Assembly (NCBI RefSeq): GCF_048403405.1
Contig: NZ_CP183131.1
Length of the DNA stretch: 64,000 nt
Strand: one strand, 5' to 3'
Source of the DNA: Escherichia coli
Lineage (GTDB): Bacteria > Pseudomonadota > Gammaproteobacteria > Enterobacterales > Enterobacteriaceae
Shown here: positions 3,217-54,289 of the stretch, in pieces
How the letters are laid out: each line of letters starts with the position of its first letter
How positions within the stretch are numbered: the first letter of the stretch is position 1
Program-made: the position numbers and the translations under genes
The notes under the pieces: generated by a model
What the model was told of the DNA's origin: nothing
Database searches by the model: none
What the model saw: only the letters and a program-made list of their open reading frames with translations

Positions 3217-4227
3217 TCACCAGTAGAACGTCTCTACTTCTTCCGGCAAATCATCAAGAGGAGCAAGCACGTCCTCATCAACAATGTACCGTGGCTTCAC
3301 AGAGCCAGTAACCGTTACACGGCACCGCTCTGATGACTTCTCTCTGTACTGGTCAACATCCTCAGGCTTCACGCCTGACGCCTTATCAGCCAACAGCTTT
3401 TTGTAGTCTACCCGGCCAGCCGCTTTGTATCTCGTTACCATCACACCGCAGTAGTCGGCATGGAAGTATTCCCCCATGAGGGACTTCATGGTGTCGAGAT
3501 GAGGCTTTTGCCTTTCTTGAAGCTCAGACAGTCGCTGTTTCAGCTCCTGAATCTCAGCATCATAGAGGCGGTATTCCTCAGCAGCAGCAATCCAACGGTT
3601 GACCTCTTCACCTTGCGGTATGTACAGGTCTCTCTCTGGATCTTTGTCGGGCTCCTTCTTGTCTACTACCTGTTGCCAGAACTTTTTAGCCTCGGCCAAG
3701 ATTTCTTGAATCATGGCTTCGTCTCGGAGTATTGGAAACTCCTGAATCTGACCTTCAAAGTAGAAGACTAACCAGCCTTGCTTGGCCCCCGTTACCAGGA
3801 GCTGGTGTTGCACCTGCGGGTAATAAAGCTGGTATGCCTTGCTGTTTGCTTTCTCAGCACAAACATCTTCCCAGACAGTCGCACTCGGGCTTTTCAGCTC
3901 GACGGGCTCCCCGTTATCTCTCAGGCCATCCAGGGAGGCCCTCATGAGCGGGTATTGAACCGATTCGACACAGGCGGGGAGCAGCATGTCATCATACTTC
4001 TCCTCGAAAGCGCGTCTTGCAGCATCTTCGTTTTCTATCCCCCGGCGAACCAGCGGATTAAGACTCAGATCGACTTCACGCGCATACCCAGTCTTCTCGG
4101 CCCACAGTCTCCATCGTGTTTTGTACGGAGACCGATTGAGCAGGATAGCGGCGTCAGTGGCTGTTACACCTTGACGCCGCCAATCAAGCCAATCTTCCTC
4201 TCGTTGCGATAGGTTGACTATTTTCAT
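3217..4227 (-). CDS. exo: lambda Exo / YqaJ-like 5'-3' exonuclease
   Basis: 336-aa product resembles lambda exonuclease family; GGAGAGAGG before ATG; sits directly downstream of bet. Confidence 0.8.
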   Translation of the reverse strand: MKIVNLSQREEDWLDWRRQGVTATDAAILLNRSPYKTRWRLWAEKTGYAREVDLSLNPLVRRGIENEDAARRAFEEKYDDMLLPACVESVQYPLMRASLDGLRDNGEPVELKSPSATVWEDVCAEKANSKAYQLYYPQVQHQLLVTGAKQGWLVFYFEGQIQEFPILRDEAMIQEILAEAKKFWQQVVDKKEPDKDPERDLYIPQGEEVNRWIAAAEEYRLYDAEIQELKQRLSELQERQKPHLDTMKSLMGEYFHADYCGVMVTRYKAAGRVDYKKLLADKASGVKPEDVDQYREKSSERCRVTVTGSVKPRYIVDEDVLAPLDDLPEEVETFYW

Positions 4228-9858: not shown

Positions 9859-9938
9859 GTCTTTTATGGTTGCATTTTTTGATGCTGTGATATTATCGAA
9901 GTAAATCAGATTCAACTCAGGTAAGAACGGAGAACAAC

Positions 9939-42790: not shown

Positions 42791-43069
42791 TCAATTCACA
42801 TGGATAGCGAATACTTCAACCGGACAATCTCCAAAGTGCGGGTGCGTTATAACACTCCTTGAGAAGCCACGCCAAGGGCGAATCTCTATCCTGGACATAT
42901 CTCCAGCCTTTGGGTAGCCACACTTAACATGGACTTCATCATACTCGCGCCCCTCTAGTCTTTTTATCCAGTAGTCTGTAACGAGGCGATATTCATCTGG
43001 TTTTTCTCCAGATTTGATCTGATCGAAGTAAATCTTTTTTACGGGCAGATGAAGTATTCTCTTTTTCAT
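42791..43069 (-). CDS. ASCH-like (PUA-fold) domain protein
   Basis: GxKxxExR-type motif IKSGEKPDEYR; ~92 aa. Confidence 0.5.
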   Translation of the reverse strand: MKKRILHLPVKKIYFDQIKSGEKPDEYRLVTDYWIKRLEGREYDEVHVKCGYPKAGDMSRIEIRPWRGFSRSVITHPHFGDCPVEVFAIHVN

Positions 43070-43094
43070 AATCACCACCTGATAGCCCATCAGA

Positions 43095-43301
43095 CTATCT
43101 AACTATTCGACAAAACATCCCTTTTTCAATTTCTGTCTCTCTCGCCTCATGGGCCAATACAATATCCGCGATAACACGAATATTCCCTTCATAGTTGCGA
43201 ATGGCCGCATCCCTCATCGTGTCTAAAGTGTCCTGACACTTCGCTCGCCTGAATTTAACGAGCCAACTTTGCCGATCTATCTTGTCCACACCAAATCCCA
43301 T
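43095..43301 (-). CDS. hypothetical small protein (68 aa)
   Basis: ORF contiguous with neighbours. Confidence 0.45.
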   Translation of the reverse strand: MGFGVDKIDRQSWLVKFRRAKCQDTLDTMRDAAIRNYEGNIRVIADIVLAHEARETEIEKGMFCRIVR

Positions 43302-43919
43302 TTAGCGAACCATGTATCCAGCTTTTTTGGCCGCAGCATCAAGCTCGGAGGAGAAGTTAACGTCGGACTTTTCTGCCGCGTTATAGAGGGCTCCACACTT
43401 GGGCCATGAGCGTCCTACCAGTTTCATCGCCAACGCATCCGCCAGCATTTCTCGGATCTGTGTTTCAGCCTCACCAAAATCGGCCAGAGTTTCGTCTATG
43501 CCCGACTCTTCCATCAGCTCGATGAGCTGTGGTTGTTTGAGCCAGACGCCTGTTTGCATTTCCAACTGATCTCTTGCATCGGCCACCAATTGGCGTTCAA
43601 GGGTTACGCCATTCACGGTCTTAACAAATTGCTTTGGCTGACGCTTTACCTTTTTTGGCCTGGACACATCAGAGATAACCGTCACCGGCTTCCCACGCAG
43701 TTCACGCGGCAACGGTCCACTTAGCCCCAGAACTAAGCGACGAGCGTACTCATGCTCGTATGGTTTCAACCCTCGACCTTCACGGTACATTTCAGTATCC
43801 ACCAGCAGATCACCGCGCAGCCTCGCATTTTTCCGCACTTGTTCGGACAAGACCGATTTACCCTTCCCGCTGGCTCCCATTACGAGCGAGTGAGATTCTA
43901 CTTTGTTATCAAAAAACAT
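43302..43919 (-). CDS. P-loop NTPase, dNMP-kinase-like
   Basis: Walker A LVMGASGKGKSV near N-terminus; 205 aa. Confidence 0.55.
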   Translation of the reverse strand: MFFDNKVESHSLVMGASGKGKSVLSEQVRKNARLRGDLLVDTEMYREGRGLKPYEHEYARRLVLGLSGPLPRELRGKPVTVISDVSRPKKVKRQPKQFVKTVNGVTLERQLVADARDQLEMQTGVWLKQPQLIELMEESGIDETLADFGEAETQIREMLADALAMKLVGRSWPKCGALYNAAEKSDVNFSSELDAAAKKAGYMVR

Positions 43920-44012
43920 AATTCCGCCCCCAAGGAGGTGTTGCTATAAAACATGGTTTGAACATCCGTATTTTCACGGCAATAACCGCCGGATAATGCA
44001 AGACTCCCAAAC

Positions 44013-44231
44013 CTAAATAGGTCTCCAGGTGATGACATCGAAGTCATAGCTGACTTCCGAGTTGTCGTCCGCCGTTCGCCACGAACAATCATCTTCCTGA
44101 ACATGGATCAAGTCGTACTCAACAATTTTGCCCGACCAACATCCTTTAAGCTGGCAATGAACAGGCACACCGACGACCGGCATCTTGTCGTTGACGCTGA
44201 TCCACGGTTCTTGCTTTTGATCCAGATCCAC
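44013..44231 (-). CDS. DUF551-like small protein
   Basis: WISVNDKMP motif typical of phage DUF551 proteins (recalled). Confidence 0.45.
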   Translation of the reverse strand: MDLDQKQEPWISVNDKMPVVGVPVHCQLKGCWSGKIVEYDLIHVQEDDCSWRTADDNSEVSYDFDVITWRPI

Positions 44232-44234
44232 CGG

Positions 44235-44516
44235 TTAGTCCTCTATGAACGATTTAATGGATCGCCCATCAAAAAACAGTTTCCCAGTTCCTGATACCGA
44301 ATGTACTTCTGGAGCTGCCTTCCCTTTCAGGAGTTTCTGATAGCGCACCGCGTCTTTGAGCTCAGAGATCCTGACGCCAATGAGTGTGGCCGTCTCCTCA
44401 ACTGTTAAAATACGGTCCCAAAAGCTGGTGGCGCTGTTATTGCGCCCACCGATACTCTGGGCAACGCACTCTGTTCTGGCCGCTTTTCCCTTTGCCATTG
44501 GCAATGTCCTCTTCAT
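44235..44516 (-). CDS. hypothetical protein, possible HTH
   Basis: ORF; start uncertain because of overlap with upstream gene. Confidence 0.4.
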   Translation of the reverse strand: MKRTLPMAKGKAARTECVAQSIGGRNNSATSFWDRILTVEETATLIGVRISELKDAVRYQKLLKGKAAPEVHSVSGTGKLFFDGRSIKSFIED

Positions 44517-45093
44517 TCTTCTCAGCCCCCAGCTTACTCAGTATTTCAGCTTTTGTAGCGCGATGGCCGCGCATTAAAAGAGCATTCAGCAGGTATCCAG
44601 TGAACACCTCTGTACTCGGCATACGGTCAAGCAACTCAACATACTGCTCATCCGTCAAATCATGGATCTCACAATATTTTTCCACCGCCTTTTCGTAGGC
44701 TTCTGCGTAGCCATGAGTGGAAATCCTGAAAGCAATATCCCCATTGCCGTAGCCTGGCTTTGTGACGAGAAAACAAGGCGCGAAGTAGGTTCTCTTCACC
44801 CCCATCCGGCTCCGGTTCTCAATGCTGATATAAGCCCTCAGCCCCTCAGCAATGATGTTTGGCCCGGAGTTGCGTCGCCGCTTACAAGTCTTATTCTGAC
44901 GCTTCACCTCTTCTGCCTCAGCTTCCCACTTTCGGTCCAAGCTGTAGGCCAGCCGGTGAGCTGTTGCGTAGGAATACTCTCTCAAGGAGAAGTATTCCTG
45001 CCGGTAATCATCCGCCACCCCAACTGTTCGTGCGACACGGAACCCGACGAAACCGGCGTCATGGGTTCCCTCGCCGTAGTAAATGACTGCCAT
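44437..45093 (-). CDS. hypothetical protein (218 aa)
   Basis: ORF directly downstream of Dcm-like gene; stop-start junction. Confidence 0.5.
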   Translation of the reverse strand: MAVIYYGEGTHDAGFVGFRVARTVGVADDYRQEYFSLREYSYATAHRLAYSLDRKWEAEAEEVKRQNKTCKRRRNSGPNIIAEGLRAYISIENRSRMGVKRTYFAPCFLVTKPGYGNGDIAFRISTHGYAEAYEKAVEKYCEIHDLTDEQYVELLDRMPSTEVFTGYLLNALLMRGHRATKAEILSKLGAEKNEEDIANGKGKSGQNRVRCPEYRWAQ

Positions 45094-46520
45094 TATCTAC
45101 CTTCCTTACTTCTGATACCGTGCTGCACCACGGTATGGCGACCGCAATTCACATTCAGGTGATCCCGAACTGCGGCCATGACCGCTGAATGCAATCTGTA
45201 ATCCACACTCTGCCCAAGCGTTTCTGTCGCTTGTTCTTTTGCCATCCACGAAACATCAAAGCTATCAGGTATCGACATCAACTCCTGAACCAGATCGACC
45301 GATGGCTTGTAAATGCGGCCACCGTCTTGGATGTACACTGCATCCTTTACCCCACGATCCTGAGACTTGAGGATGGTCGGGCAACTGGTGCTTTCTCTCG
45401 TCAAGAACGCAGGCATCCTGCGAGAAGTTGACTCTCTGGCCTGAATTGACTTCAACACTGTGACGTCAGCACAATCCCCGAGGTGCTTCTCGATCACCGG
45501 CCACAATCGTCCACCAGCTCTCTGCTCAGGTTTCGGTGGAACGAACCCAGGGAAGACCGACGCCACCATGTAATAGCGTTCTCGCCCCTGGTAAGCGCCG
45601 AAATCCAGACCGTTCAAGACCATCTCAGTGAGGAAGTACCCCATCCGCCGCAGTGTCGTTCCCATCATCGCCCCGGCTCCGGATGCTTTGAAGTTCGGGA
45701 CGTTTTCCACCAGCACGACGGCAGGGTTCACGACCTCGATCTGTTTTAGTGCCGGGTAAACCATGTCGAGCATGGTGGAGAGATCCTCAAGAGAACGCTC
45801 TTTGTCCCTTGGACTTTTGGCGTTTGAGTGGTCATCACACCCCAACGAGTAATGGGCCAAACCAATTGGTGGGCACTCCGCCAGCAAGGCTCCAAGGCGA
45901 TCCAGCTCCAGGTGATGAATGTCTTCATTCAGCAGGATACGCGGGGAGCTGTTCACCAGCGTATTGAGCGCATGTACTTCACTCAGGTTCCGCCCGGATG
46001 CTCTGTCTCTGGCTTCAACTGGACGATGCTCCAAAACAATCTCAGCCTTCCAGCCAAGCGCTTCCATAACATGAATGTCTACCCCGCCAGTCAATGCCAC
46101 AAAGGCACGGAAAGGGCTGGTTTTTCTGAACCGATCCGCAATGGCAAAGGCTCTGTTTGCGACAGGAGTGAAGACTACTCGGCCTTTTCGCATTTCGACG
46201 TGGAAACGCTCTGTATAGCGAGGGAAGCACTTATCTATGAGCCCTTGTCCAGAAAACTCAATAACGGTTTCCAGCGGGTTGTTGGAGCGACTCTTTGGTT
46301 GATACCGGCGCTGATAAACCTGGTGTGTCTGTAGTTCATCGGTCGCTGGGATCACCGAAAAACCGCCCATCCCCTCCCCTGGCTCAACGGCGATGCCCAT
46401 ACCTGGCTTGAACCCCATAACATCCAAAAAGTTGGACGAAACCCTAACCTTGCGTTTATCGCCTACTCGATTGAACGCAAGTTGTTTGGTTACTACGGAG
46501 GGGGAGACGATCGGTAACAT
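45093..46520 (-). CDS. C5-cytosine DNA methyltransferase (Dcm-like), no adjacent endonuclease recognised
   Basis: ENVPNF motif and QGRERYYMVA (QxRxR) motif; 475 aa. Confidence 0.7.
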   Translation of the reverse strand: MLPIVSPSVVTKQLAFNRVGDKRKVRVSSNFLDVMGFKPGMGIAVEPGEGMGGFSVIPATDELQTHQVYQRRYQPKSRSNNPLETVIEFSGQGLIDKCFPRYTERFHVEMRKGRVVFTPVANRAFAIADRFRKTSPFRAFVALTGGVDIHVMEALGWKAEIVLEHRPVEARDRASGRNLSEVHALNTLVNSSPRILLNEDIHHLELDRLGALLAECPPIGLAHYSLGCDDHSNAKSPRDKERSLEDLSTMLDMVYPALKQIEVVNPAVVLVENVPNFKASGAGAMMGTTLRRMGYFLTEMVLNGLDFGAYQGRERYYMVASVFPGFVPPKPEQRAGGRLWPVIEKHLGDCADVTVLKSIQARESTSRRMPAFLTRESTSCPTILKSQDRGVKDAVYIQDGGRIYKPSVDLVQELMSIPDSFDVSWMAKEQATETLGQSVDYRLHSAVMAAVRDHLNVNCGRHTVVQHGIRSKEGR

Positions 46521-46523
46521 TGG

Positions 46524-47024
46524 TCAACCTCTTTTCTTCTTGTTTTGCTCGCGCTTCACCATTGCTCCAGCAGCTTTCAGAAGTCTCTGGTTCTCCGCCA
46601 GCTCCTCTTGGAGTTCCTGAGTATCCTCTTCTGTCTGAGGCTTTTTCAGCTCGGCCTCGCAATATTGGACCTCTTCCTGCAAGCTGACTTTCGCAAACTT
46701 GAGAGCGGCCAGTCGCGTCGTATAAACGCCAAAAGGCAATTCGCCACCTTCCCGGAACTGCTTCAAACACCAGCTCGGTATAGATGGCAACCAACCAAAG
46801 TCCCCATTCTTCCGTGACCTTTTCCCCCACGTAATCCCATCTAACTTTTGGGCAAGATTGACATAGCGTTGATCGCTGGTTGAGTTGCGTCGTTTCTGAA
46901 TAGAGCGAACTATCCACTCTGTAACCTCGACCTTTGCTTTATCATCATCAGAGATGTAATAAAGGGCTGCGTACAACACAGCGCCTTTACGAATGACTGA
47001 TGGTGGGTATGCCTGGGCTTTCAT
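46524..47024 (-). CDS. hypothetical protein (166 aa)
   Basis: ORF in operon. Confidence 0.5.
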   Translation of the reverse strand: MKAQAYPPSVIRKGAVLYAALYYISDDDKAKVEVTEWIVRSIQKRRNSTSDQRYVNLAQKLDGITWGKRSRKNGDFGWLPSIPSWCLKQFREGGELPFGVYTTRLAALKFAKVSLQEEVQYCEAELKKPQTEEDTQELQEELAENQRLLKAAGAMVKREQNKKKRG

Positions 47025-47032
47025 CTATCCCC

Positions 47033-47365
47033 CTATCGCTTTTTCTGTCCGACAAGACGGAGATGATCGGCGGCCAAGTCATACTGCTCGTTTTTGTCGC
47101 GGCGGCGGAATCTGTCAAAAAACTTCCCTCGTGGCAGGGTTTCTTCCATAGCGATCAGGCGGTTCAGCCACACTTCTTGAGGTAGCATCCCTGCTGGAGT
47201 CGGCCCGAGCTTACGTCCTTCCTTGACGTGCTCCATTGTTTGCGTGGCAGTAAAAATCGCACCACCAAACTTTCTCCACTTGAATTGCAGGGGCATATCT
47301 GGAGACTCATCCAGCATCAATTTCTTATTGGTTTGTTCTGTCACGACAATTACTCCACCATCCAT
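47033..47365 (-). CDS. hypothetical protein (110 aa)
   Basis: ORF in operon. Confidence 0.45.
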   Translation of the reverse strand: MDGGVIVVTEQTNKKLMLDESPDMPLQFKWRKFGGAIFTATQTMEHVKEGRKLGPTPAGMLPQEVWLNRLIAMEETLPRGKFFDRFRRRDKNEQYDLAADHLRLVGQKKR

Positions 47366-47874
47366 TCTTCACTAAGCAGGAACGCCCAGCGCTCTTCTGC
47401 TTTTTCTGGGTTGTCTTTGGCCTGTTTGATCATGATCTCGGCGGCGTTAAAGCCTACCTCTCCACTGAACCGGCCCCATGAATGGCTATGCCACTCGCGC
47501 ATCACACTTCGGCCAAGCGATGCAAGTTCTGGACTTACACCCTCATGGAGGGCATAGAGCTCCCAAGCATCCCACCCGTATCGTAATAGGTTGTGCCCTG
47601 GGGCGTTAAAGGCCTGAGCAGCCTTGAACCGCTCTCCAGGCTCCTTCCCTCTAACATCCACACCCTGGAGCACCAACCCCATTACCACTTCAATGACCGG
47701 CTCGCGTTGCTTCTTTGCCAGCTCGATGGCAGCCACCAGCATTGCTTTGGCGTCAGCAAATTTCCCATGCCCTTGGCACATACCGCAGGTTTCTTTGGAA
47801 GGGGAAAAGTCATAAACACCGGAACCAGCACAGAGGCGGCATGTCATGTCAATCATGGGCTCTTCTCTCCTCAT
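47350..47874 (-). CDS. protein with DnaJ-type zinc-finger repeats (CRLCAGSG, CGMCQGHG)
   Basis: Two CxxCxGxG motifs near N-terminus. Confidence 0.55.
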   Translation of the reverse strand: MRREEPMIDMTCRLCAGSGVYDFSPSKETCGMCQGHGKFADAKAMLVAAIELAKKQREPVIEVVMGLVLQGVDVRGKEPGERFKAAQAFNAPGHNLLRYGWDAWELYALHEGVSPELASLGRSVMREWHSHSWGRFSGEVGFNAAEIMIKQAKDNPEKAEERWAFLLSEEWMVE

Positions 47875-48556
47875 ACTCTTCGATGCGCTCTTTCAGACGC
47901 TGAACCACTGGTGCGAGCTCAGGGATAGCTTCCGCTTCCTCAAGCGTGTATCGCTTGTCTTCCTGGTAATCGACTATTTGAGGAGGCCTTGGCTGTTTAG
48001 GGAACTCAGCAAAGTCATTCAGCGACATCGAGGTAGGAAGTCCTCCTTCAATCTCACCTTTTTCGTTGAGTGACTGGGTGACGATAAGCTGTGTTCCGCC
48101 CACCTCGGTATCAAAGCGGTCATCAAAGCGCTCACCGATAGTCCAGCCGCCACGGCCAAGAACACAGGTCGTACTCATACGTAGGCGATTGAATGCTTTA
48201 GCGTCATCCCAGTTCAAAGGATTTTCATCCATGAGGAAAAAAGGCGCTTCGTCCCGAACGAACACCTTGGACTTGGCGTTATCGAAGATCGGCCCAAACA
48301 CCCCCTGCTGGAGGTATGGTTCGACCTTCTCTGCAAGATCCTGGTGCCCTTGAGAACGCAGCGCCTCATAGAGCTGGGTGATTGTTTGTTTGCCGGTGCC
48401 CGGAAGGCAGGACAATACTGTCTGCTTTTCCTCGTCACTCAGGCTTACCATTCTGGACAAAAAGCTGACTACCAGCTCGTTGTGCCCATCGACCGTTTCA
48501 ATGTTGAGCTTGTTCTCGTCCATCTTCTTCCTCAGTAATCGGTTCGATAAATTCAA
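47849..48556 (-). CDS. hypothetical protein (235 aa)
   Basis: ORF in operon. Confidence 0.5.
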   Translation of the reverse strand: MNLSNRLLRKKMDENKLNIETVDGHNELVVSFLSRMVSLSDEEKQTVLSCLPGTGKQTITQLYEALRSQGHQDLAEKVEPYLQQGVFGPIFDNAKSKVFVRDEAPFFLMDENPLNWDDAKAFNRLRMSTTCVLGRGGWTIGERFDDRFDTEVGGTQLIVTQSLNEKGEIEGGLPTSMSLNDFAEFPKQPRPPQIVDYQEDKRYTLEEAEAIPELAPVVQRLKERIEEYEERRAHD

Positions 48557-48866
48557 TGGAGTCCATGCTTACATGACTGATAATGGCTTTCAGGCCGCAG
48601 CAGTCGCATGGTTCAAAGGTCAGTTCTGATCCCTTGGGAGACTGATGCGTGACCGTTGCCACAGCCCCTAGAGGGATCACCCCCCAGCCGTTTTTTAGTA
48701 CCCGAGTAGTTCTGACCAGCCGACCTTTGTACTCTCGTTTCAGTTTCGGATGCGGCACTACCGCATATCGCTTACTCATTTCGGTCCCCTTGTACCAAAG
48801 GCTCGACAACCAGCTCTTGAGCTTCGTCCCAGTCGGACACCTTTGCATCACCAAACGCAAAGGCAA
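48498..48866 (-). CDS. hypothetical protein (start probably internal ATG ~48779)
   Basis: ORF; overlap with upstream gene suggests later start. Confidence 0.4.
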   Translation of the reverse strand: MPLRLVMQRCPTGTKLKSWLSSLWYKGTEMSKRYAVVPHPKLKREYKGRLVRTTRVLKNGWGVIPLGAVATVTHQSPKGSELTFEPCDCCGLKAIISHVSMDSIEFIEPITEEEDGREQAQH

Positions 48867-49158
48867 TTCGCATAGCCACTGTCGGCCTGCCTATTTTCAT
48901 CAAGTAAGCCGCAGCACCGGCACACATCGACTCTTGTCCCGAAGGTGCATAGTTACCCTCTTCATCCCATTCACCACCTGACTTTGAATGCACGGTCTTG
49001 TGGCAATGAAACGTCGTCATGTCGTTTTCAACGATGTCGTTGATGATGCCTTCTAATCGCCCAGGGACCAGCTCGATAGCGCCCTCCTTCCGGAATGGAC
49101 AGTTGGCGCAAGGTTTCTTCAAACGGAGATGATTTGCTTGCTTTGGCATACATATCAC
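48772..49158 (-). CDS. cysteine-rich small protein (CANCPFR...HCHKTV), first gene of the operon
   Basis: ORF ~89 bp downstream of a box. Confidence 0.5.
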   Translation of the reverse strand: MICMPKQANHLRLKKPCANCPFRKEGAIELVPGRLEGIINDIVENDMTTFHCHKTVHSKSGGEWDEEGNYAPSGQESMCAGAAAYLMKIGRPTVAMRIAFAFGDAKVSDWDEAQELVVEPLVQGDRNE

Positions 49159-49246
49159 TTTTACAGTATCATTTTATGATTCTATGATATAGCCATATTC
49201 CGTGTAGTCAATATCTCACTAACAATTACTTTCTATCGGACGCTTA

Positions 49247-49261
49247 CGCGCCCATTTTGGG
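49247..49261. promoter_or_regulatory. GCCCAWTTTGGRCA-type box ~89 bp upstream of the 49158 operon start
   Basis: GCCCATTTTGGGCAG. Confidence 0.5.
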
Positions 49262-49314
49262 CAGATAGACAAGTTATTTGGGCGTTTGGAGTGTGCGAGG
49301 TGGACAGCGGGGAG

Positions 49315-49332
49315 ACTTTCACATGTGAAAGT
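49315..49332. promoter_or_regulatory. perfect palindrome ACTTTCACATGTGAAAGT (parS-like)
   Basis: Same core as 31436 and 52721. Confidence 0.6.
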
Positions 49333-49467
49333 TTTGTTTCTTGGTATCGTTTTATTGTCCCTTGATATTATTTTATGATGCTGTAATAATCATAAATAAG
49401 GGCCGCATCGCTCTTCGACCTTCGTTGCAGCCCTTACAACACAATCAAGCAATTAAGGAGCTTTGTT

Positions 49468-49611
49468 ATGCTGCAAGGCAATACTAACACGAATAAGCGC
49501 ATCCCGCTCGCGGCGTTCATGAAATGGCCGCTGGCGAAACGTCAGGACTTCATCGACCGGGAAATGTCCGGTTGCCCCGACTTTATCAAGACGTCTTTGC
49601 TTCGGCATTAA
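49468..49611 (+). CDS. possible small protein (47 aa)
   Basis: AAGGAG 8 nt before ATG; followed by hairpin; below ORF-track cutoff. Confidence 0.35.
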   Translation: MLQGNTNTNKRIPLAAFMKWPLAKRQDFIDREMSGCPDFIKTSLLRH

Positions 49612-49702
49612 GGCGATCAGGCAGGAAAGCAAAGAACCTCGCTTCGGCGGGGTTCTTCGTTTCTACCTCTTGAATGTTTCGTCAGAACAAACTGGAGCGC
49701 TT

Positions 49703-50338
49703 ATGTCACCAGAAACACAGCAACTTACATCCAAGGCTTTATCTCTCATCGAGCAGTCCCGATACAGAATGGGCACATCTCGGTTTGTTGAGGCCTTTAT
49801 TGACCAGTGGGCATACTTGCAGACTGGCCTATACCCAGCCAAGGAGGAGATCCCGGAAGAACTTCAGCCGGTCGCCTTCGAGCTCTCTCACGTCCTGTCT
49901 GCCGCCATTAAGCGCGACCCCACCAGCGATGTTTTGGGTTACGTCCTAAGCATGTCTGGCTTCCACAAGAAGGGCACCAATTACTTCCCCACTCCTCCAG
50001 AGATTGGCCGCTTGATGTCACTCATTGTTGGCTCACAGTCTTCGGCAGACTTTTATGAGCCCTGCTGTGGTTCTGGCATCAACGCCATTCACTGGATGGA
50101 AAACCTGATCGAGAACCACGGTCCCGAAGCATTGAGAGAAGCCTCAATCTACCTGGAAGACATCGATCCGTTGATGGTGAAGTGCTGCATGATCCAGCTA
50201 TTCCATTATTTCGAGTCCCGCAATACCACTCCCAAAACGCTGAGTATCGTCGGCATAGACACCCTTAGCAGACGAACCAAGAACATCGCCTACTACGCCG
50301 AAAAACCTCCAGCAACCGCCGCTACCGTGGCAGCATAA
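49703..50338 (+). CDS. N6-adenine methyltransferase-like SAM-binding domain protein, apparently lacking catalytic (D/N)PP(Y/F) motif
   Basis: FPTPPEIGRLM and FYEPCCGSG motifs; GGAG RBS; only 211 aa. Confidence 0.5.
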   Translation: MSPETQQLTSKALSLIEQSRYRMGTSRFVEAFIDQWAYLQTGLYPAKEEIPEELQPVAFELSHVLSAAIKRDPTSDVLGYVLSMSGFHKKGTNYFPTPPEIGRLMSLIVGSQSSADFYEPCCGSGINAIHWMENLIENHGPEALREASIYLEDIDPLMVKCCMIQLFHYFESRNTTPKTLSIVGIDTLSRRTKNIAYYAEKPPATAATVAA

Positions 50339-50364
50339 AAAAACCCGCCGATTGGCGGGTTTTG
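50337..50364. terminator. bidirectional terminator (CCCGCCGATTGGCGGG hairpin)
   Basis: A-run / hairpin / T-run. Confidence 0.7.
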
Positions 50365-50390
50365 CATTCAATGCGCTGCTCTATGGCACC

Positions 50391-50669
50391 TTACAGTTTT
50401 CCGTACCGGTTCAAGAACGAAGACCTGTCTAAGATCCCCCAGTCTGTCAGCATGTAGTAGCCGGTGGCACCTCGTTCGCCGGTAGACTCCCTGACGAACA
50501 AGATATTCATTCCGAACTCATCACGCAGGGCAGACAACTGTCTCTTGATCGTTGATTCAGGAATATTTGTTGCCTTGTGAAGGTCTTGGAGACTTGGCTT
50601 CTCCGTTTTAGACAGGGCATTCACCAAAGCAAATTTTCTTTTCATGTCCTGTGAGATCTTCATATTCAC
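50391..50669 (-). CDS. small HTH-type protein downstream of parB
   Basis: 92 aa; helix-turn-helix-like segment ESTIKRQLSALRDEFG. Confidence 0.5.
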   Translation of the reverse strand: MNMKISQDMKRKFALVNALSKTEKPSLQDLHKATNIPESTIKRQLSALRDEFGMNILFVRESTGERGATGYYMLTDWGILDRSSFLNRYGKL

Positions 50670-50711
50670 CTGTTCTTGACAGGCCCAACCTCTCTGGCTG
50701 GGCCTCCTTTA

Positions 50712-51893
50712 TTAGCCTTCGACACTCAGGAGTTCAATGTCTGACACAGGCACATGAACATGCTTTTCCTTGCCTTCGCCATCGAGCGTTTTAACCCAGA
50801 CAGTAGACGGAACCAGAGCAACACGGTCGGTCATGATGACTCCACGTTTGGTCTCGCCATCCAGGTTAACGTTGACAGCAAAAATCAAACTGTCAGCCCG
50901 GACGTTCTTCCATTCCTTGTCCTTCGGCAGAGGAGGAAGAGCATCACCGCCTTCTTCATCTTTGTCCTTGCCGCTGTTATCTGGCTGCTTGACAGGATCT
51001 TTGTGCTCACCCTCTTCATCACGCAAAGGGTCTTCGTCATCATCGTCCTGACCATTGGAATTTTTACCCCCTTCCAGTTCCTCCTGGGCAAGGTTCAGGT
51101 CGTCATTCCCGGTTTGTTCCGACGTACCATCCCCACCCGAGTTGAGGGATTGCTCGTCGGTGTTGCCAGCGCCAAGCTCATCATTCTGGTGGGAGCCAGT
51201 CAGTGGGCCTTTTTCCATTTCGTCTTTGATACGTTTGGCATCATTCAGCAGCTCACGGCTTTGTTTACGAGTAATCCCGTCAGACATAGCCACCGCGCAG
51301 ACGGCGCGACATCTTTCTTCATTCAGATCGAACAAGAGACGAAGGTTATTCAAGGTCTCTGTATCAGAACATACTTCATTATCGTATAACTCACGCACAC
51401 AGTCAGGTAGCTTGAGCAACGACAGATGCGTAGATACGAAAGTGATATTCTTACCGAGCCGATCAGCAATATCCTTTTGCTTCCAACCTTCTTCAATAAA
51501 CAGGTTTAACGCCTCGGCAATCTCTACCGGAGTCAAGTCATCCCGCTGGATGTTTTCGATCAGCTCACCAGCAGTCTCGTCCAAGTTGTTCTGGACCTTA
51601 TCATTCACCACCAAGTCAATGGTCTCGATACCAGCGTGTTTACACGCTCTCCAACGCCGCTCCCCTTTTTGGATGACGAACTTGCCTTCTTCGTTCTTCG
51701 GGAACACGATGATCGGAGACTGCTGCCCTTCGGTCAGCAAGGTTGCCGCCAGCTCTTCAATGTTACGGAAGCGCTTACGAACCTGGACCTTGGATACAAC
51801 GTCGTCAACAGGTACGGTAAGAACCTCTTTGCCTTTCTTGCCTTTGGCGGCTTTAGCAAGTTCGGACAGGCCTTTTAAATTGTTCAATGCCAT
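50712..51893 (-). CDS. parB: ParB-family partition / DNA-binding protein with acidic low-complexity linker
   Basis: ParB box GERRWRA; 393 aa; downstream of parA. Confidence 0.85.
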   Translation of the reverse strand: MALNNLKGLSELAKAAKGKKGKEVLTVPVDDVVSKVQVRKRFRNIEELAATLLTEGQQSPIIVFPKNEEGKFVIQKGERRWRACKHAGIETIDLVVNDKVQNNLDETAGELIENIQRDDLTPVEIAEALNLFIEEGWKQKDIADRLGKNITFVSTHLSLLKLPDCVRELYDNEVCSDTETLNNLRLLFDLNEERCRAVCAVAMSDGITRKQSRELLNDAKRIKDEMEKGPLTGSHQNDELGAGNTDEQSLNSGGDGTSEQTGNDDLNLAQEELEGGKNSNGQDDDDEDPLRDEEGEHKDPVKQPDNSGKDKDEEGGDALPPLPKDKEWKNVRADSLIFAVNVNLDGETKRGVIMTDRVALVPSTVWVKTLDGEGKEKHVHVPVSDIELLSVEG

Positions 51894-51896
51894 CGC

Positions 51897-52688
51897 TTAG
51901 CCCACCTTCTCTAATAGTTCTTCCAACACCGCCTCAACTTCTTTGGCCGCGACATGTCCATAGCGAAGCTCCCAGACAGGGATGCCATCAGTCGTCGCCG
52001 TATCGAGCGGAGGCCGGTGCATAATTTTGTTCTCAAACAACAGATCCGGAACTGTGTTCTCCAGCGACTTGAGGGCTTTGTCGTGATTGACAGAGCGGTC
52101 CATGTCGTTGATCACGATGCCCAGGATCTCCAAATCTTGGTTGTACGCCTCGCGCACACCAATAATCGTGTTCAGGAGACCTTCTACGCCGTCCACAGCG
52201 AAGCCAGAGAGCTTTACTGGACATGCCACATGGGTAGACATCACCAACGCTGCCACCAGCTTTCTGCCGAGGCTAGGCGGACAATCAATCAGCACGTAGT
52301 CGTAGTTCTCAAACAGCTCAGCCAAATGGCGAGCCGGATTCATGGCCTGGTCAAGAGGCACAGCCTCCATCTCAAACAGATCCGGGTCGTTTTTCGGCGT
52401 ATGAATGAGGTCTGCACCGCAAGGGCAGTGCATGACCTCAATGCCGTCCAGCTCGTAAGCGAACAGCTCTGCGGTTTTGGTTCCTGTGAGGATGGGCTCG
52501 TAGTCACCATCCTCAAGCTCTCGTCTGGGGGCCAGTCGAGAGGACGTGTTCCCCTGACCATCCATATCCAAGACCAGCACTTTCTTTTTCTTCTGTAACG
52601 CCAGATAAAAGGCCTGCTGGATACAGAGGGTACTCTTACCCACTCCGCCTTTCTGGTTGGCGAAGCTGATTACTTTTGCCATACCCAC
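51897..52688 (-). CDS. parA: ParA-family partition ATPase
   Basis: Deviant Walker A KGGVGKST. Confidence 0.9.
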   Translation of the reverse strand: MGMAKVISFANQKGGVGKSTLCIQQAFYLALQKKKKVLVLDMDGQGNTSSRLAPRRELEDGDYEPILTGTKTAELFAYELDGIEVMHCPCGADLIHTPKNDPDLFEMEAVPLDQAMNPARHLAELFENYDYVLIDCPPSLGRKLVAALVMSTHVACPVKLSGFAVDGVEGLLNTIIGVREAYNQDLEILGIVINDMDRSVNHDKALKSLENTVPDLLFENKIMHRPPLDTATTDGIPVWELRYGHVAAKEVEAVLEELLEKVG

Positions 52689-52718
52689 CTCTATTTTGGT
52701 TTCTCGCAGGTGATCAAG

Positions 52719-52736
52719 ACCACCCCCAAACTTTCA
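52719..52736. promoter_or_regulatory. parS-like palindrome CTTTCACATGTGAAAG ~33 bp upstream of parA start (candidate centromere/operator)
   Basis: Third copy of the palindrome; ATCATAAAATGAT motif 12 bp away. Confidence 0.6.
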
Positions 52737-52855
52737 CATGTGAAAGATTGTAGCGATCATAAAATGATACTGCAATATCTAATTATGGTTCTGTTAAAAC
52801 AAACTTTAAACAAAAAAACGGCCATGAAGGCCGCTTATTGACAAGGTTTGTGCTG

Positions 52856-53167
52856 TCAGCGCAATTGATTTGCTGCTCCAAGCCCATTCGCCAATAACTG
52901 CATCGCATCGTTGAACAGCGCGGAGCCCCGTTCCGGTGTGAGCAATTCCGGCATATCTTCTCGCGGCCAAGTACCGGCTACTTGAATGAGCAAACTGGCA
53001 GCCCAGTGGATCTGCTTTTCTTCACTTTCATCGGCCAGAGTGCATACGACGGGGAAACCGTACTTACGCCCCCAGCGACTCACCTCTTTGAACGATACCA
53101 GCTCAGGCTTTTGCAAATCCCGGCTGTAGGCCTCAGCTATCATGTGGTTCAGTTCTTTAGCGTCCAT
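52856..53167 (-). CDS. hypothetical protein (103 aa)
   Basis: ORF with downstream terminator hairpin; last backbone gene before resistance island. Confidence 0.5.
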   Translation of the reverse strand: MDAKELNHMIAEAYSRDLQKPELVSFKEVSRWGRKYGFPVVCTLADESEEKQIHWAASLLIQVAGTWPREDMPELLTPERGSALFNDAMQLLANGLGAANQLR

Positions 53168-53473
53168 TTATCCCACTCTATTGTAAACAAGACATTTTTA
53201 TCTTTTATATTCAATGGCTTATTTTCCTGCTAATTGGTAATACCATGAAAAATACCATGCTCAGAAAAGGCTTAACAATATTTTGAAAAATTGCCTACTG
53301 AGCGCTGCCGCACAGCTCCATAGGCCGCTTTCCTGGCTTTGCTTCCAGATGTATGCTATTCTGCTCCTGCAGCTAATGGATCACCGCAAACAGGTTACTC
53401 GCCTGGGGATTCCCTTTCGACCCGAGCATCCGTATGAGACTCATGCTCGATTATTATTATTATAGAAGCCCCC

Positions 53474-54289
53474 ATGAATAAATCGCTCATCATTTTCGGC
53501 ATCGTCAACATAACCTCGGACAGTTTCTCCGATGGAGGCCGGTATCTGGCGCCAGACGCAGCCATTGCGCAGGCGCGTAAGCTGATGGCCGAGGGGGCAG
53601 ATGTGATCGACCTCGGTCCGGCATCCAGCAATCCCGACGCCGCGCCTGTTTCGTCCGACACAGAAATCGCGCGTATCGCGCCGGTGCTGGACGCGCTCAA
53701 GGCAGATGGCATTCCCGTCTCGCTCGACAGTTATCAACCCGCGACGCAAGCCTATGCCTTGTCGCGTGGTGTGGCCTATCTCAATGATATTCGCGGTTTT
53801 CCAGACGCTGCGTTCTATCCGCAATTGGCGAAATCATCTGCCAAACTCGTCGTTATGCATTCGGTGCAAGACGGGCAGGCAGATCGGCGCGAGGCACCCG
53901 CTGGCGACATCATGGATCACATTGCGGCGTTCTTTGACGCGCGCATCGCGGCGCTGACGGGTGCCGGTATCAAACGCAACCGCCTTGTCCTTGATCCCGG
54001 CATGGGGTTTTTTCTGGGGGCTGCTCCCGAAACCTCGCTCTCGGTGCTGGCGCGGTTCGATGAATTGCGGCTGCGCTTCGATTTGCCGGTGCTTCTGTCT
54101 GTTTCGCGCAAATCCTTTCTGCGCGCGCTCACAGGCCGTGGTCCGGGGGATGTCGGGGCCGCGACACTCGCTGCAGAGCTTGCCGCCGCCGCAGGTGGAG
54201 CTGACTTCATCCGCACACACGAGCCGCGCCCCTTGCGCGACGGGCTGGCGGTATTGGCGGCGCTGAAAGAAACCGCAAGAATTCGTTAA
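53474..54289 (+). CDS. sul2: sulfonamide-resistant dihydropteroate synthase Sul2
   Basis: Protein matches Sul2 along its length (MNKSLIIFGIVNITSDSFSDGGRYLAPDAAIAQARKLMAEGADVIDLGPASSNPDAAPV...). Confidence 0.95.
   Translation: MNKSLIIFGIVNITSDSFSDGGRYLAPDAAIAQARKLMAEGADVIDLGPASSNPDAAPVSSDTEIARIAPVLDALKADGIPVSLDSYQPATQAYALSRGVAYLNDIRGFPDAAFYPQLAKSSAKLVVMHSVQDGQADRREAPAGDIMDHIAAFFDARIAALTGAGIKRNRLVLDPGMGFFLGAAPETSLSVLARFDELRLRFDLPVLLSVSRKSFLRALTGRGPGDVGAATLAAELAAAAGGADFIRTHEPRPLRDGLAVLAALKETARIR

What the first reader, a model, noticed from the sequence alone, without database searches (positions are those of the whole stretch)
49168..52760. Second operator-like motif ATCATAAAATGAT at parA promoter and at head of the 49158 operon
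The imperfect palindrome ATCAT-AAA-ATGAT occurs 12 bp from the parS-like site at the parA promoter (~52748) and, as its complement, ~10 bp upstream of the 49158 start (~49168). A related inverted repeat TTTATGAT-N9-ATCATAAA lies at ~49372. This suggests a second DNA-binding regulator, perhaps the small HTH protein downstream of parB, co-regulating partition and the 13-gene operon.
Basis: seen in the sequence. Interest (0 to 1): 0.33.

Follow-up and report, generated by a model that had tools for sequence, protein, structure and literature searches.

The report
Conserved second operator in IncC plasmids
The short palindrome is a real, deeply conserved repressor-binding site sitting inside the partition-gene promoter and several other promoters of IncC multidrug-resistance plasmids. 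Its most likely binder is the small, essential, so far unexplained protein 053 encoded right after parB.

Summary
The window is IncC plasmid backbone. ATCATAAAATGAT is exact at 49168-49180 and 52756-52768, with a 1-mismatch copy at 49367-49379. That is 3 hits against 0.05 expected.

It is the core of a longer palindrome, TTTACAGTATCAT-TTT-ATGATACTGTAAA. On a whole IncC plasmid, 5 sites match within 1 mismatch (0.3 expected). All are intergenic and overlap promoter-like elements, and three lie 10-36 bp from a ParB site (parS).

In the parA promoter the motif fills the -35/-10 spacer. Across 13 diverged relatives its GTATCAT core holds the only invariant promoter columns, even where parS is lost.

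The motif travels with homologues of 053, a winged-helix protein with a near-invariant recognition helix. One element carries both without parAB.

Published data fit. The vcrx035/036 promoters are constitutive off the plasmid but silent on it, and an unidentified co-repressor of PparA has been postulated.

Best reading: a global repressor operator, probably bound by 053, working beside the KorB-like ParB. Binding is not shown. One published result points to a factor encoded outside parAB053. At 49168 the motif lies in the 5' UTR of the AcaCD-dependent transcript, not in that promoter.

The parts
52748..52776 (-). Operator O1 in the parA promoter. On the parA sense strand it reads ATTGCAGTATCAT-TTT-ATGATCGCTACAA (core 13-mer 52756-52768). 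It has a strong left arm and a weak right arm.
   Evidence: The left arm and the TG of the right half hold the only invariant columns in 13 diverged PparA promoters.
52747..52775 (-). PparA core promoter: -35 TTGCAG (52775-52770), 17-bp spacer (52769-52753) filled by the motif, -10 TACAAT (52752-52747).
   Evidence: Read. This agrees with the BProm promoter reported 64 bp upstream of the parA start, with parS overlapping the -10 (PMC10954446). PparA was shown to be strong and repressed 8-11 fold by IncC plasmids.
52728..52749 (.). parS (ParB site) at PparA: AAACTTTCACATGTGAAAGATT, core 52732-52745.
   Evidence: ParB binding to this site was shown by EMSA in PMC10954446.
49160..49188 (+). Operator O2: TTTACAGTATCAT-TTT-ATGATTCTATGAT (core 49168-49180). 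A third ATGAT pentamer lies at 49184-49188.
   Evidence: O2 shares 17 identical bases (CAGTATCATTTTATGAT) with O1.
49359..49396 (-). Operator O3: ATTACAGCATCAT-AAA-ATAATATCAAGGG on the - strand (49387-49359, core 49367-49379), plus an extra half-site ATCATAAA at 49389-49396. It overlaps the predicted vcrx035/methylase promoter.
   Evidence: O3 is conserved as ATTACAGYATCAT-WWW-.TAATATCAA in IncA and in L008, L021, L025-L027 and L011.
49160..49390 (+). Two predicted sigma-70 promoters facing vcrx035/vcrx034: TTTACA-17-TATGAT (49160-49188) and TTGATA-17-AATAAT (49362-49390).
   Evidence: 10 of 12 matches each. The vcrx035 promoter is constitutive as a chromosomal lacZ fusion (PMC8373056) but gives 0 reads on the plasmid (PMC4207636 Dataset S1).
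49184..49211 (-). Predicted sigma-70 promoter facing vcrx036: TTGACT-16-TATCAT. O2 begins at its -10.
   Evidence: The vcrx036 promoter is constitutive off the plasmid and gives 0 reads on the acaCD deletion plasmid.
49240..49273 (-). AcaCD activator box (ctgcccaaaatgggcg) with its dependent transcription start at 49203-49205. O2 therefore lies at +18 to +46 of that transcript.
   Evidence: pVCR94deltaX coordinates from Table S3 and Dataset S1 of PMC4207636, mapped as window = 69650 - p. Sequence checked.
49313..49334 (.). Second parS in this intergenic region (core 49317-49330), 36 bp from the O3 core.
   Evidence: PMC10954446 lists a parS near R55_55/vcrx036.
50391..50663 (-). ORF 053 (vcrx033), 90 aa, winged helix-turn-helix. 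Proposed operator-binding repressor.
   Evidence: Pfam HTH_43, E 7.3e-10. AF2 model pLDDT 86.5 with H-H-H-wing-H topology. Foldseek matches DUF2131 3ke2, then MarR/ArsR/SmtB repressors. Recognition helix IPESTIKRQ is near-invariant in 17 homologues.
50712..52682 (-). parA (51897-52682, 261 aa) and parB (50712-51893, 393 aa, KorB-domain ParB), transcribed from PparA together with 053.
   Evidence: Annotation. Pfam KorB E 1.7e-38, ParB_N and HTH_ParB.
42791..49149 (-). The vcrx036-044 operon and following genes: 125-aa protein, 93-aa protein, thymidylate kinase, cytosine methyltransferase and others.
   Evidence: Annotation. Operon prediction and AcaCD dependence from PMC4207636.
49468..50338 (+). 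vcrx035 (47 aa, 49468-49611) and vcrx034 (N6 DNA methylase, 49703-50338), downstream of O2 and O3.
   Evidence: Annotation. Pfam N6_Mtase. Silent on the plasmid.

Best explanation
The motif is the core of a palindromic operator, consensus TTTACAGTATCAT-TTT-ATGATACTGTAAA, for a plasmid-encoded sequence-specific repressor. The most likely repressor is the 90-aa winged-helix protein 053, the third gene of the parA-parB-053 operon.

Each arm contains a -35-like hexamer (TTTACA, TTGCAG or TTGACA). A bound dimer would therefore cover the -35 and spacer, or the -10 and +1, and exclude RNA polymerase.

Proposed targets:
- PparA, where the operator acts beside ParB bound at the adjacent parS. This would autoregulate the partition operon.
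- Both directions of the vcrx035/vcrx036 intergenic region: the methylase operon, and a constitutive promoter or the leader of the AcaCD-activated operon.
- Outside the window, the vcrx007/vcrx008 divergent region, an operon next to the ParB-like regulator R55_24, and probably the acr1-acaDC master promoter.

Shown here or in the literature: the sites, their enrichment, their overlap with promoters, their deep conservation, their co-occurrence with 053, and trans-repression of these promoters by the plasmid.

Inferred: that 053 is the binder, and that it cooperates with ParB.
For: 1. Enrichment. Three sites in the window against 0.05 expected. Five sites within 1 mismatch on a whole IncC plasmid against 0.3 expected, all intergenic. 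All 6 copies of TTTATGAT on the plasmid fall in these sites.

2. Extended symmetry. Aligning the five sites gives 13-3-13 arms, and two sites match 27 of 29 consensus positions.

3. Position. The motif fills the 17-bp spacer of PparA. It overlaps predicted sigma-70 promoters at 49160, 49211 and 49362.

4. Footprint. In 13 PparA promoters whose 053 homologue is 57-98% identical to the window's (ParB down to 56% where measured), the only invariant columns are G..TCA of AGTATCAT and the G of the right-half TG. parS is absent in 4 of them. Seven further loci keep the same arm.

5. Co-occurrence with 053.
- The recognition helix IPESTIKRQ is near-invariant.
- L018 carries a 053 homologue without parAB, and the exact 13-mer sits 42 bp upstream of its operon in otherwise unrelated sequence. 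The chance of an exact copy anywhere in that contig is about 2e-4.
- L012 and L013 keep exact copies although parS is lost or changed.
- A Comamonas plasmid (053 54% identical) has GCAGTACCATAAA in the operon promoter next to its own parS variant.

6. 053 has a repressor-like fold: a winged helix closest to the MarR/ArsR/SmtB class.

7. Published experiments.
- PparA is repressed 8-11 fold by IncC plasmids, and a co-repressor is postulated (PMC10954446).
- 053 is essential for maintenance, yet dispensable for stabilising a parS replicon when parAB053 is driven from ParaBAD. That fits a regulatory role.
- The vcrx035 and vcrx036 promoters are constitutive as chromosomal fusions (PMC8373056) but silent on the plasmid (PMC4207636). 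vcrx007, downstream of site 5, is also nearly silent.
Against: - No binding experiment exists.
- In Muranyi et al., parAB053 from a minimal replicon or from ParaBAD repressed PparA less than a whole plasmid. The authors place the missing factor outside parAB053. If that factor binds this operator, 053 is not the binder.
- L014 has a 053 homologue (64% identical, helix LPESTLKRH) with no motif in the 10 kb held.
- The loci were collected through 053 or ParB, so co-occurrence is partly built in. The reverse test (motif without 053) was not run.
- The inner pentamers are only 8 bp apart centre to centre, which is closer than usual for a winged-helix dimer.
- At PparA only one arm is strong.
- At 49168 the mapped AcaCD-dependent start lies upstream of the motif, so repression there would need a roadblock or a second promoter.
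Confidence: 0.6

Rival explanations
1. The operator is real but is bound by a different plasmid-encoded protein made outside parAB053. This would be the unidentified co-repressor postulated by Muranyi et al. One candidate class is the ParB-like HTH regulators such as R55_24, a 182-aa protein with a ParB HTH and a ParB_C dimerisation domain but no N-terminal domain. Another is an unrecognised small protein.
For: A whole plasmid represses PparA more than parAB053 alone, and SGI1 Sci relieves only the whole-plasmid repression. The best palindrome, site 4, lies 57 bp downstream of the R55_24 gene and 33 bp from a parS. ParB-HTH accessory genes recur near these modules in L008, L009, L010, L011, L017 and L025.
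Against: - R55_24 appears in 994 plasmids against 1149 for 053.
- It is missing from the syntenic IncA locus, from pVCR94deltaX and from most distant relatives that keep the operator.
- The ParB-like accessory proteins are too divergent between elements to explain an invariant GTATCAT.
- vcrx035 is unexpressed and is absent from L012.
- vcrx041, which accompanies 053 in L018, is absent from IncA.
- Acr2 (H-NS-like) could be the extra factor without needing this motif; this is inference.
Confidence: 0.2
2. The conserved block is a host-factor site (for example IHF, consensus WATCAANNNNTTR) or an intrinsic promoter element. Repression then comes from ParB, Acr2 or the host rather than from a dedicated plasmid repressor.
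For: TATCATTTTATGA matches 7 of the 9 specified IHF positions, and L017 reads TATCAAAATATGC (my comparison with the textbook consensus). The arm includes the -35 hexamer, which is expected to be conserved anyway.
Against: - Sites 4, 5 and L023 are near-perfect 29-bp palindromes, which an asymmetric IHF site does not require.
- The invariant bases lie in the spacer, not in the -35.
- The motif recurs at non-homologous promoters and follows 053 into an unrelated element.
- The same promoters are active in E. coli without the plasmid, so the silencing factor is plasmid-borne.
Confidence: 0.08
3. The site is a second recognition element for the partition proteins themselves, meaning ParB or ParA autoregulation.
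For: Par operons are usually autoregulated by ParA and/or ParB. The motif abuts parS at three sites.
Against: - ParB binds the unrelated 22-bp parS, and 4-bp insertions in parS abolish binding.
- ParA is 261 aa with no DNA-binding N-terminal domain.
- The motif persists where parS is gone (L012, L013) and where parAB are absent (L018).
Confidence: 0.05
4. The motif is chance similarity or recent promoter duplication in AT-rich intergenic DNA, with no function.
For: O1 and O2 share 17 identical bases, as a duplication would. The motif contains a -10-like TATGAT.
Against: Expected counts are 0.05-0.3 against 3-5 observed. The core is invariant across relatives whose flanks have diverged. It occurs in an unrelated sequence context in L018.
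Confidence: 0.03

Closest known systems
KorA-KorB central control of IncP-1 (RK2) and IncU (RA3) plasmids
   Same: The ParB carries the KorB domain, with 13-14 binding sites scattered near promoters. A second small repressor would have a palindromic operator overlapping the promoter core and lying next to the ParB/KorB site at a subset of promoters. The partition operon is autoregulated, and maintenance and establishment genes are co-regulated. KorA-KorB cooperation is described in PMC11790492.
   Different: 053 is a winged-helix protein of Pfam HTH_43/DUF2131 with no hit to a KorA family. Its gene follows parB instead of lying within or ahead of incC. The operator is a 13-3-13 sequence unrelated to the 12-bp KorA operator (OA). 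Cooperation with ParB is untested.
ArsR/SmtB- and MarR-type winged-helix dimeric repressors
   Same: The predicted fold matches. The operator is an imperfect inverted repeat of about 29 bp over a promoter, comparable to the 12-2-12 sites of SmtB/CzrA (from my own knowledge).
   Different: No ligand- or metal-binding region is evident. At 90 aa, 053 is shorter than MarR proteins. Sequence similarity is only at the level of generic HTH profiles (E 4e-4 or weaker, below the Pfam cut-offs).
AspA-ParB-ParA three-component partition system of the archaeal plasmid pNOB8
   Same: A small winged-helix protein is encoded in the same operon as ParA and ParB and binds a palindrome at the operon promoter. 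Foldseek gives a weak structural match (5k5q, E 0.03).
   Different: AspA is the centromere-binding adaptor needed for segregation. 053 was dispensable for ParAB-dependent stabilisation of a parS replicon, and ParB itself binds parS.
Global establishment-gene repressors of IncW/IncN plasmids (ArdK, KorA, StbA networks)
   Same: One plasmid repressor with several operators keeps anti-restriction, methylase-type and maintenance genes silent at steady state. This allows a burst of expression on entry into a new host (from my own knowledge).
   Different: The proteins and operators are unrelated. Transient induction of the IncC targets after transfer has not been examined.

Membership tests
KorA-KorB type central control module | Partition protein ParB of the KorB type | tested here: met
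   Pfam KorB domain E 1.7e-38, plus ParB_N and HTH_ParB.
KorA-KorB type central control module | Many ParB/KorB sites dispersed over the plasmid, mostly near promoters | tested here: met
   4 parS cores in the window and 13 on pAMSC1. 14 are reported on R55 (PMC10954446).
KorA-KorB type central control module | The second repressor is a KorA homologue | tested here: not met
   053 hits only HTH_43 and generic HTH profiles in Pfam at E up to 0.1. The PDB profile search finds only 3ke2 (DUF2131).
KorA-KorB type central control module | Second operator adjacent to the ParB/KorB site at a subset of promoters | tested here: met
   The gap to the parS core is 10 bp at PparA, 36 bp at O3 and 32 bp at site 4. 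Other sites have no nearby parS.
KorA-KorB type central control module | Cooperative repression and direct contact between the two proteins | not testable with these tools
   This needs in vitro binding or two-hybrid assays.
Winged-helix dimeric repressor with inverted-repeat operator | Winged helix-turn-helix fold | tested here: met
   The AF2 model has H5-19, H25-32, H36-50, strands 53-58 and 68-74, and H80-87, with pLDDT 86.5. Foldseek places it with MarR/ArsR/Rrf2 repressors at probability 1.0.
Winged-helix dimeric repressor with inverted-repeat operator | Inverted-repeat operator overlapping the promoter core | tested here: met
   A 13-3-13 palindrome that overlaps the -35 and spacer, or the -10, at all sites.
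Winged-helix dimeric repressor with inverted-repeat operator | Sequence-specific binding of the protein to that operator | not testable with these tools
   Only co-occurrence and co-conservation are available.
IncC parS (ParB site) | 14-bp core TTTCACATGTGAAA with AAAC/GTTT flanks | tested here: not met
   The motif sequence is unrelated, and the two elements are separate at every locus.
AcaCD (FlhDC-like activator) box | Lies within the ChIP-exo-defined AcaCD motif, about 35 bp upstream of an AcaCD-dependent start | tested here: not met
   The box maps to 49240-49273 and the start to 49203-49205. The motif is downstream at 49168-49180. PparA is not in the AcaCD list.
IHF binding site | Asymmetric consensus WATCAANNNNTTR | tested here: inconclusive
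   7 of the 9 specified positions match. However, the sites are palindromic and the conserved bases extend beyond the IHF core.
LexA SOS box | CTGT-N8-ACAG | tested here: not met
   Here the order is reversed and the spacing differs: ACAG-N15-CTGT.
Restriction-modification controller (C protein and C-box) ahead of the methylase | A small HTH protein encoded upstream of the methylase, autoregulating through the repeat | tested here: not met
   vcrx035 (47 aa) has no family hit in Pfam, PHROGs or NCBIfam. It gives 0 reads in RNA-seq. It is absent from L012, which keeps the operator.
AspA-type third partition component | Required as the DNA adaptor for ParAB-mediated segregation | tested here: not met
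   In the literature, a parS replicon was stabilised by ParA plus ParB without 053 (PMC10954446).

The most novel reading that the evidence does not exclude
053 is the functional counterpart of KorA for the KorB-like ParB of IncC plasmids. Bound at its operator next to parS, it would capture ParB and together they would silence a plasmid-wide set of promoters. That set would include the acr1-acaDC master promoter, which carries a conserved operator arm in its spacer. Partition, establishment genes and the decision to conjugate would then share one switch. The SGI1 protein Sci would destabilise its helper plasmid by disabling this switch.
Probability: 0.15. Interest if true: 0.8.

Novelty: new variant of a known kind. 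Interest (0 to 1): 0.55.

Why it matters
IncC plasmids are major carriers of multidrug resistance. Their partition operon is essential and is the target through which SGI1 islands expel them.

Three published puzzles would get one testable answer:
- what the essential ORF 053 does;
- what the missing co-repressor of PparA binds;
- why the vcrx035/036 promoters are constitutive in isolation but silent on the plasmid.

A defined 29-bp operator with invariant bases gives direct reagents: point mutants, EMSA probes and ChIP targets. It would also assign a first function to the uncharacterised HTH_43/DUF2131 family. If the acr1-acaDC promoter is a genuine target, maintenance and conjugation control are linked.

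Tried and rejected
- **AcaCD box.** Mapped from published coordinates to 49240-49273, which is distinct from the motif.
- **R55_24, the 182-aa ParB-like regulator, as binder.** Its distribution is too narrow.
- **vcrx035 as a C-protein-like autoregulator.** It has no domain, is not expressed, and is absent in L012.
- **vcrx041.** It accompanies 053 in L018 (52% identical) but is absent from IncA, so it is more likely cargo than the regulator.
- **Other small proteins downstream of the sites** (83, 64, 123, 156, 144, 125, 93 and 103 aa). None has a DNA-binding family hit in Pfam, PHROGs or NCBIfam.
- **RNA element.** At PparA the motif lies upstream of the transcription start, so it acts as DNA.
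- **LexA, Fur, FNR and ArgR boxes.** Compared by eye with textbook consensus sequences; the arrangement does not fit.
- **Literature.** A full-text search for the motif string found nothing relevant. Searches for PF09904/DUF2131 found nothing. Hancock 2017 and pVCR94/R55 records could not be retrieved.
- **The search for related loci.** The 5-sequence alignment gave 7 loci.
- **Not run.** The reverse test, searching public contigs for the operator and asking whether 053 is nearby. Sites can lie more than 20 kb from 053, so a negative result would be uninformative.

Full report
**What the window is.** The region 48000-54000 is 100% identical to more than a thousand IncC (A/C2) plasmids. All coordinates below are window coordinates unless stated. 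The annotation reads:
- parA 51897-52682 (-)
- a KorB-domain parB 50712-51893 (-)
- a 90-aa helix-turn-helix gene, 50391-50663 (-), known in the literature as ORF 053 or vcrx033
- a convergent pair, vcrx035 (47 aa, 49468-49611, +) and an N6 methylase vcrx034 (49703-50338, +)
- a leftward operon starting at 49149 (vcrx036 onwards)

ParB binds it in EMSA, and 14 copies are scattered over R55 (PMC10954446). The window holds 4 cores.

**Checking the observation.**
- ATCATAAAATGAT is exact at 52756-52768 and, as its complement, at 49168-49180. A 1-mismatch copy lies at 49367-49379. That is 3 hits against 0.05 expected.
- TTTATGAT-N9-ATCATAAA is at 49372-49396.
- TTATGAT occurs only four times on both strands of the window, all within these sites.
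- I fetched a complete IncC plasmid (pAMSC1, 131,411 bp). The 13-mer with up to 1 mismatch occurs five times, all intergenic. A second-order Markov model predicts 0.3, and 0.12 per 20 kb of the most A+T-rich DNA.

**Anatomy: a longer palindrome.** Aligning the five sites shows that the 13-mer is the centre of TTTACAGTATCAT-TTT-ATGATACTGTAAA.
- Two sites outside the window match 27 of 29 consensus positions. One is pAMSC1 93551-93579, which lies 32 bp from a parS and downstream of the ParB-like regulator R55_24. The other is 104834-104862, between the divergent vcrx007 and vcrx008.
- Each arm begins with a -35-like hexamer.
- In PparA the sense strand reads TTGCAG-[TATCATTTTATGATCGC]-TACAAT, followed by parS. 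The motif therefore fills the 17-bp spacer of the promoter that Muranyi et al. predicted and showed to be strong.
- In the 49150-49467 intergenic region the consensus scan finds three good sigma-70 promoters, each overlapping an operator: TTTACA-17-TATGAT (+, 49160-49188), TTGATA-17-AATAAT (+, 49362-49390) and TTGACT-16-TATCAT (-, 49211-49184).

**Correction at 49168.** I mapped the published pVCR94deltaX coordinates onto the window as window = 69650 - p. The mapping is anchored on the vcrx036 ATG (20501 = 49149) and the vcrx035 start (20182 = 49468).
- The AcaCD activator box lies at 49240-49273.
- The AcaCD-dependent transcription start of vcrx036 lies at 49203-49205.
- The motif is therefore at +26 to +38 of that leader, not in that promoter.
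- It can still act there as a roadblock, and as an operator for the overlapping sigma-70 promoters on both strands.

**Conservation.** I collected parA-parB-053 loci from IncA, an Aeromonas plasmid, pAQU1, Marinobacterium, a Shewanella MAG, Edwardsiella, Photorhabdus, Alcanivorax, Paraglaciecola and several metagenome contigs. Across these loci ParB is 47-91% and 053 57-99% identical to the window's.
- In a 13-sequence alignment of PparA, the only invariant columns are G, T, C and A of aGtATCAt and the G of the right-half TG.
- The -10 TA is nearly invariant. parS is missing from four of the promoters.
- L012 and L013 carry exact 13-mers although parS is absent or changed.
- The seven loci from the genome scan keep ATTG(C/T)AGTATCAT-WWW-.TG.. 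or a close variant. Edwardsiella also has the near-perfect palindrome TTTATAGCATCATTTTATGATGCTGTAAA.
- The O3 site ahead of the methylase is conserved as ATTACAGYATCAT-WWW-.TAATATCAA.

Spacer bases are not normally conserved. This is the footprint of a bound factor.

**Who binds it.** 053 is the best candidate.
- 053 is a winged-helix protein: Pfam HTH_43 E 7e-10; AF2 pLDDT 86.5 with H-H-H-wing-H topology; Foldseek matches DUF2131 3ke2 first, then MarR/ArsR/SmtB/Rrf2 repressors.
- Its recognition helix IPESTIKRQ is nearly invariant in 17 homologues. This matches the invariance of the operator core.
- In contig L018 a 053 homologue (62% identical) sits in an integrase-bearing element without parAB. 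The exact 13-mer, within a palindromic frame, lies 42 bp upstream of its three-gene operon, in sequence otherwise unrelated to IncC.
- A Comamonas plasmid (053 54%, ParB 35% identical) has GCAGTACCATAAA in the operon promoter beside its own parS variant.

The other candidates fit worse.
- R55_24 is missing from IncA at the syntenic position, from pVCR94deltaX and from distant relatives.
- vcrx035 is unexpressed and is absent in L012.
- vcrx041 is absent in IncA.
- ParA has no DNA-binding domain.
- ParB binds the unrelated parS.
- No other small protein downstream of the sites has a DNA-binding signature.

**Agreement with published experiments.**
- PparA is strong in E. coli and is repressed 8-11 fold by whole IncC plasmids.
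- 053 is essential in a transposon screen. Yet it is not needed for ParAB to stabilise a parS replicon when the operon is driven from ParaBAD. That is the behaviour expected of a regulator of the native promoter.
- Durand et al. found the vcrx035 and vcrx036 promoters constitutively active as single-copy chromosomal fusions and could not explain it.
- On the plasmid, vcrx035 and vcrx034 give zero reads in all conditions. vcrx036 gives zero without AcaCD, and vcrx007 is nearly silent.
- The plasmid therefore silences exactly the promoters that carry this operator, and parS in one case.

**The main caveat.** Muranyi et al. saw weaker repression from parAB053 alone than from a whole plasmid. Sci had no effect in the minimal system. 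They concluded that a co-repressor is encoded elsewhere.
- This does not exclude 053 as the operator binder. The extra factor could be, for example, the H-NS-like Acr2; that is my inference.
- It does keep alive the rival in which the unknown factor binds this operator.
- L014, a 053 homologue with an altered helix, has no motif in the 10 kb held.
- My loci were chosen through 053 or ParB, so co-occurrence is partly by construction.

**A wider regulon.** An arm scan finds TTGACAGCATCAT-TAT-TTGGG in the acr1-acaDC promoter region (pAMSC1 113770-113798). The architecture there is TTGACA-17-TGTAAA.
- The arm is kept in IncA and in an Edwardsiella plasmid whose Acr1 is only 61% identical. In both of those the -10 reads TATAAA.
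- It is only partly kept in a pAQU1-type plasmid.
- If real, the same repressor touches the master switch of conjugation.

**Comparison with known systems.** Functionally the system resembles the KorA-KorB central control of IncP-1 and IncU plasmids. It has a KorB-type ParB with many sites, and a second small repressor whose operator abuts the ParB site at some promoters.
- 053 is not a KorA homologue, and the gene order and operator differ, so it is an analogue and not a member.
- It also resembles ArsR/MarR-type repressors in fold and operator size.
- It resembles the archaeal AspA-ParB-ParA operon superficially, but 053 is not required for segregation itself.
- The full-text search found no description of the motif or of the HTH_43 family.

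**Verdict.**
- It is a genuine, conserved cis-regulatory operator: about 0.9.
- 053 is its binder: about 0.6 overall.
- This is a new variant of a known kind of plasmid control circuit. It is of solid interest to plasmid biologists because it makes three open questions directly testable.

Noticed in passing
window 9863-9891; also pAMSC1 91834-91862 and 114322-114350 (outside the window): There is a second family of three near-identical promoter-like palindromes, TT(T/C)A(T/C)(G/A)GTTGCATTTTTT(G/A)ATGC(T/C)GTG(A/G)T. Each lies about 45-50 bp upstream of a gene for a small membrane protein (two are paralogues) or a lipoprotein-like protein. The outer frame CACAG...CTGTG resembles the operator described here, but the inner bases differ at an invariant position. 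It may be the operator of another regulator.
   Followed up: partly
pAMSC1 113770-113798 (L004 13770-13798), outside the window: The acr1-acaDC master promoter region carries a perfect operator arm in its spacer (TTGACAGCATCAT-TAT-TTGGG, then TGTAAA). The arm is conserved in IncA and in an Edwardsiella plasmid with 61% Acr1 identity. A separate palindrome, TGTCA-N5-TGACA, follows the -10 and may be the Acr1 site.
   Followed up: partly
pAMSC1 93628-94176 (L003 43628-44176, - strand), outside the window: The 182-aa 'transcriptional regulator' (R55_24) has a ParB HTH and a ParB_C dimerisation domain but lacks the N-terminal CTPase domain. A parS and the best operator palindrome lie just downstream of its stop codon. 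Similar truncated ParB-like genes recur near par modules in several relatives.
   Followed up: partly
L003 43287-43538 (- strand): An 83-aa ORF, unannotated in the RefSeq table, has its stop overlapping the next gene's ATG (TGATG). It starts about 20 bp from the site-4 operator.
   Followed up: no
L018 4366-5740: In an integrase-bearing metagenomic element, a 053 homologue is followed in the same operon by a homologue (52% identical) of vcrx041 (window 46524-47024), a gene of the IncC vcrx036 operon. The two genes therefore travel together outside IncC plasmids.
   Followed up: partly
L009 1785-1802; L013 about 2895-2912: Relatives use parS variants with the same symmetry but different inner bases: TTTTCGCATGCGAAAA in Comamonas and TGTTCGCATGCGAACA in a Shewanella MAG, against TTTCACATGTGAAA in IncC. 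This could serve as a natural specificity series for KorB-like ParB proteins.
   Followed up: no
L010 about 3569-3598: Yersinia pseudotuberculosis pVM82 encodes a distant 053-like protein (34% identical) directly after a ParB-HTH protein. About 180 bp upstream of that pair is a perfect 30-bp palindrome, CCTGTTTTCAATTTATAAATTGAAAACAGG, with further GTTTTCAA repeats nearby.
   Followed up: no
window 52816-52836 (- strand): An intrinsic-terminator-like hairpin (AAGCGGCCTTCATGGCCGTTT followed by a T run) ends the 103-aa gene vcrx030 just upstream of PparA. It is conserved in the relatives, so PparA is insulated from upstream transcription.
   Followed up: no
pAMSC1 90737-90765 (outside the window): A further operator-like site, ATCATAGTATCAT-TAT-GTGATGCTGTAAA (23 of 29 consensus positions), lies about 140 bp from an IS26 end at the edge of the resistance island. 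Its original neighbour may have been lost through the insertion.
   Followed up: no
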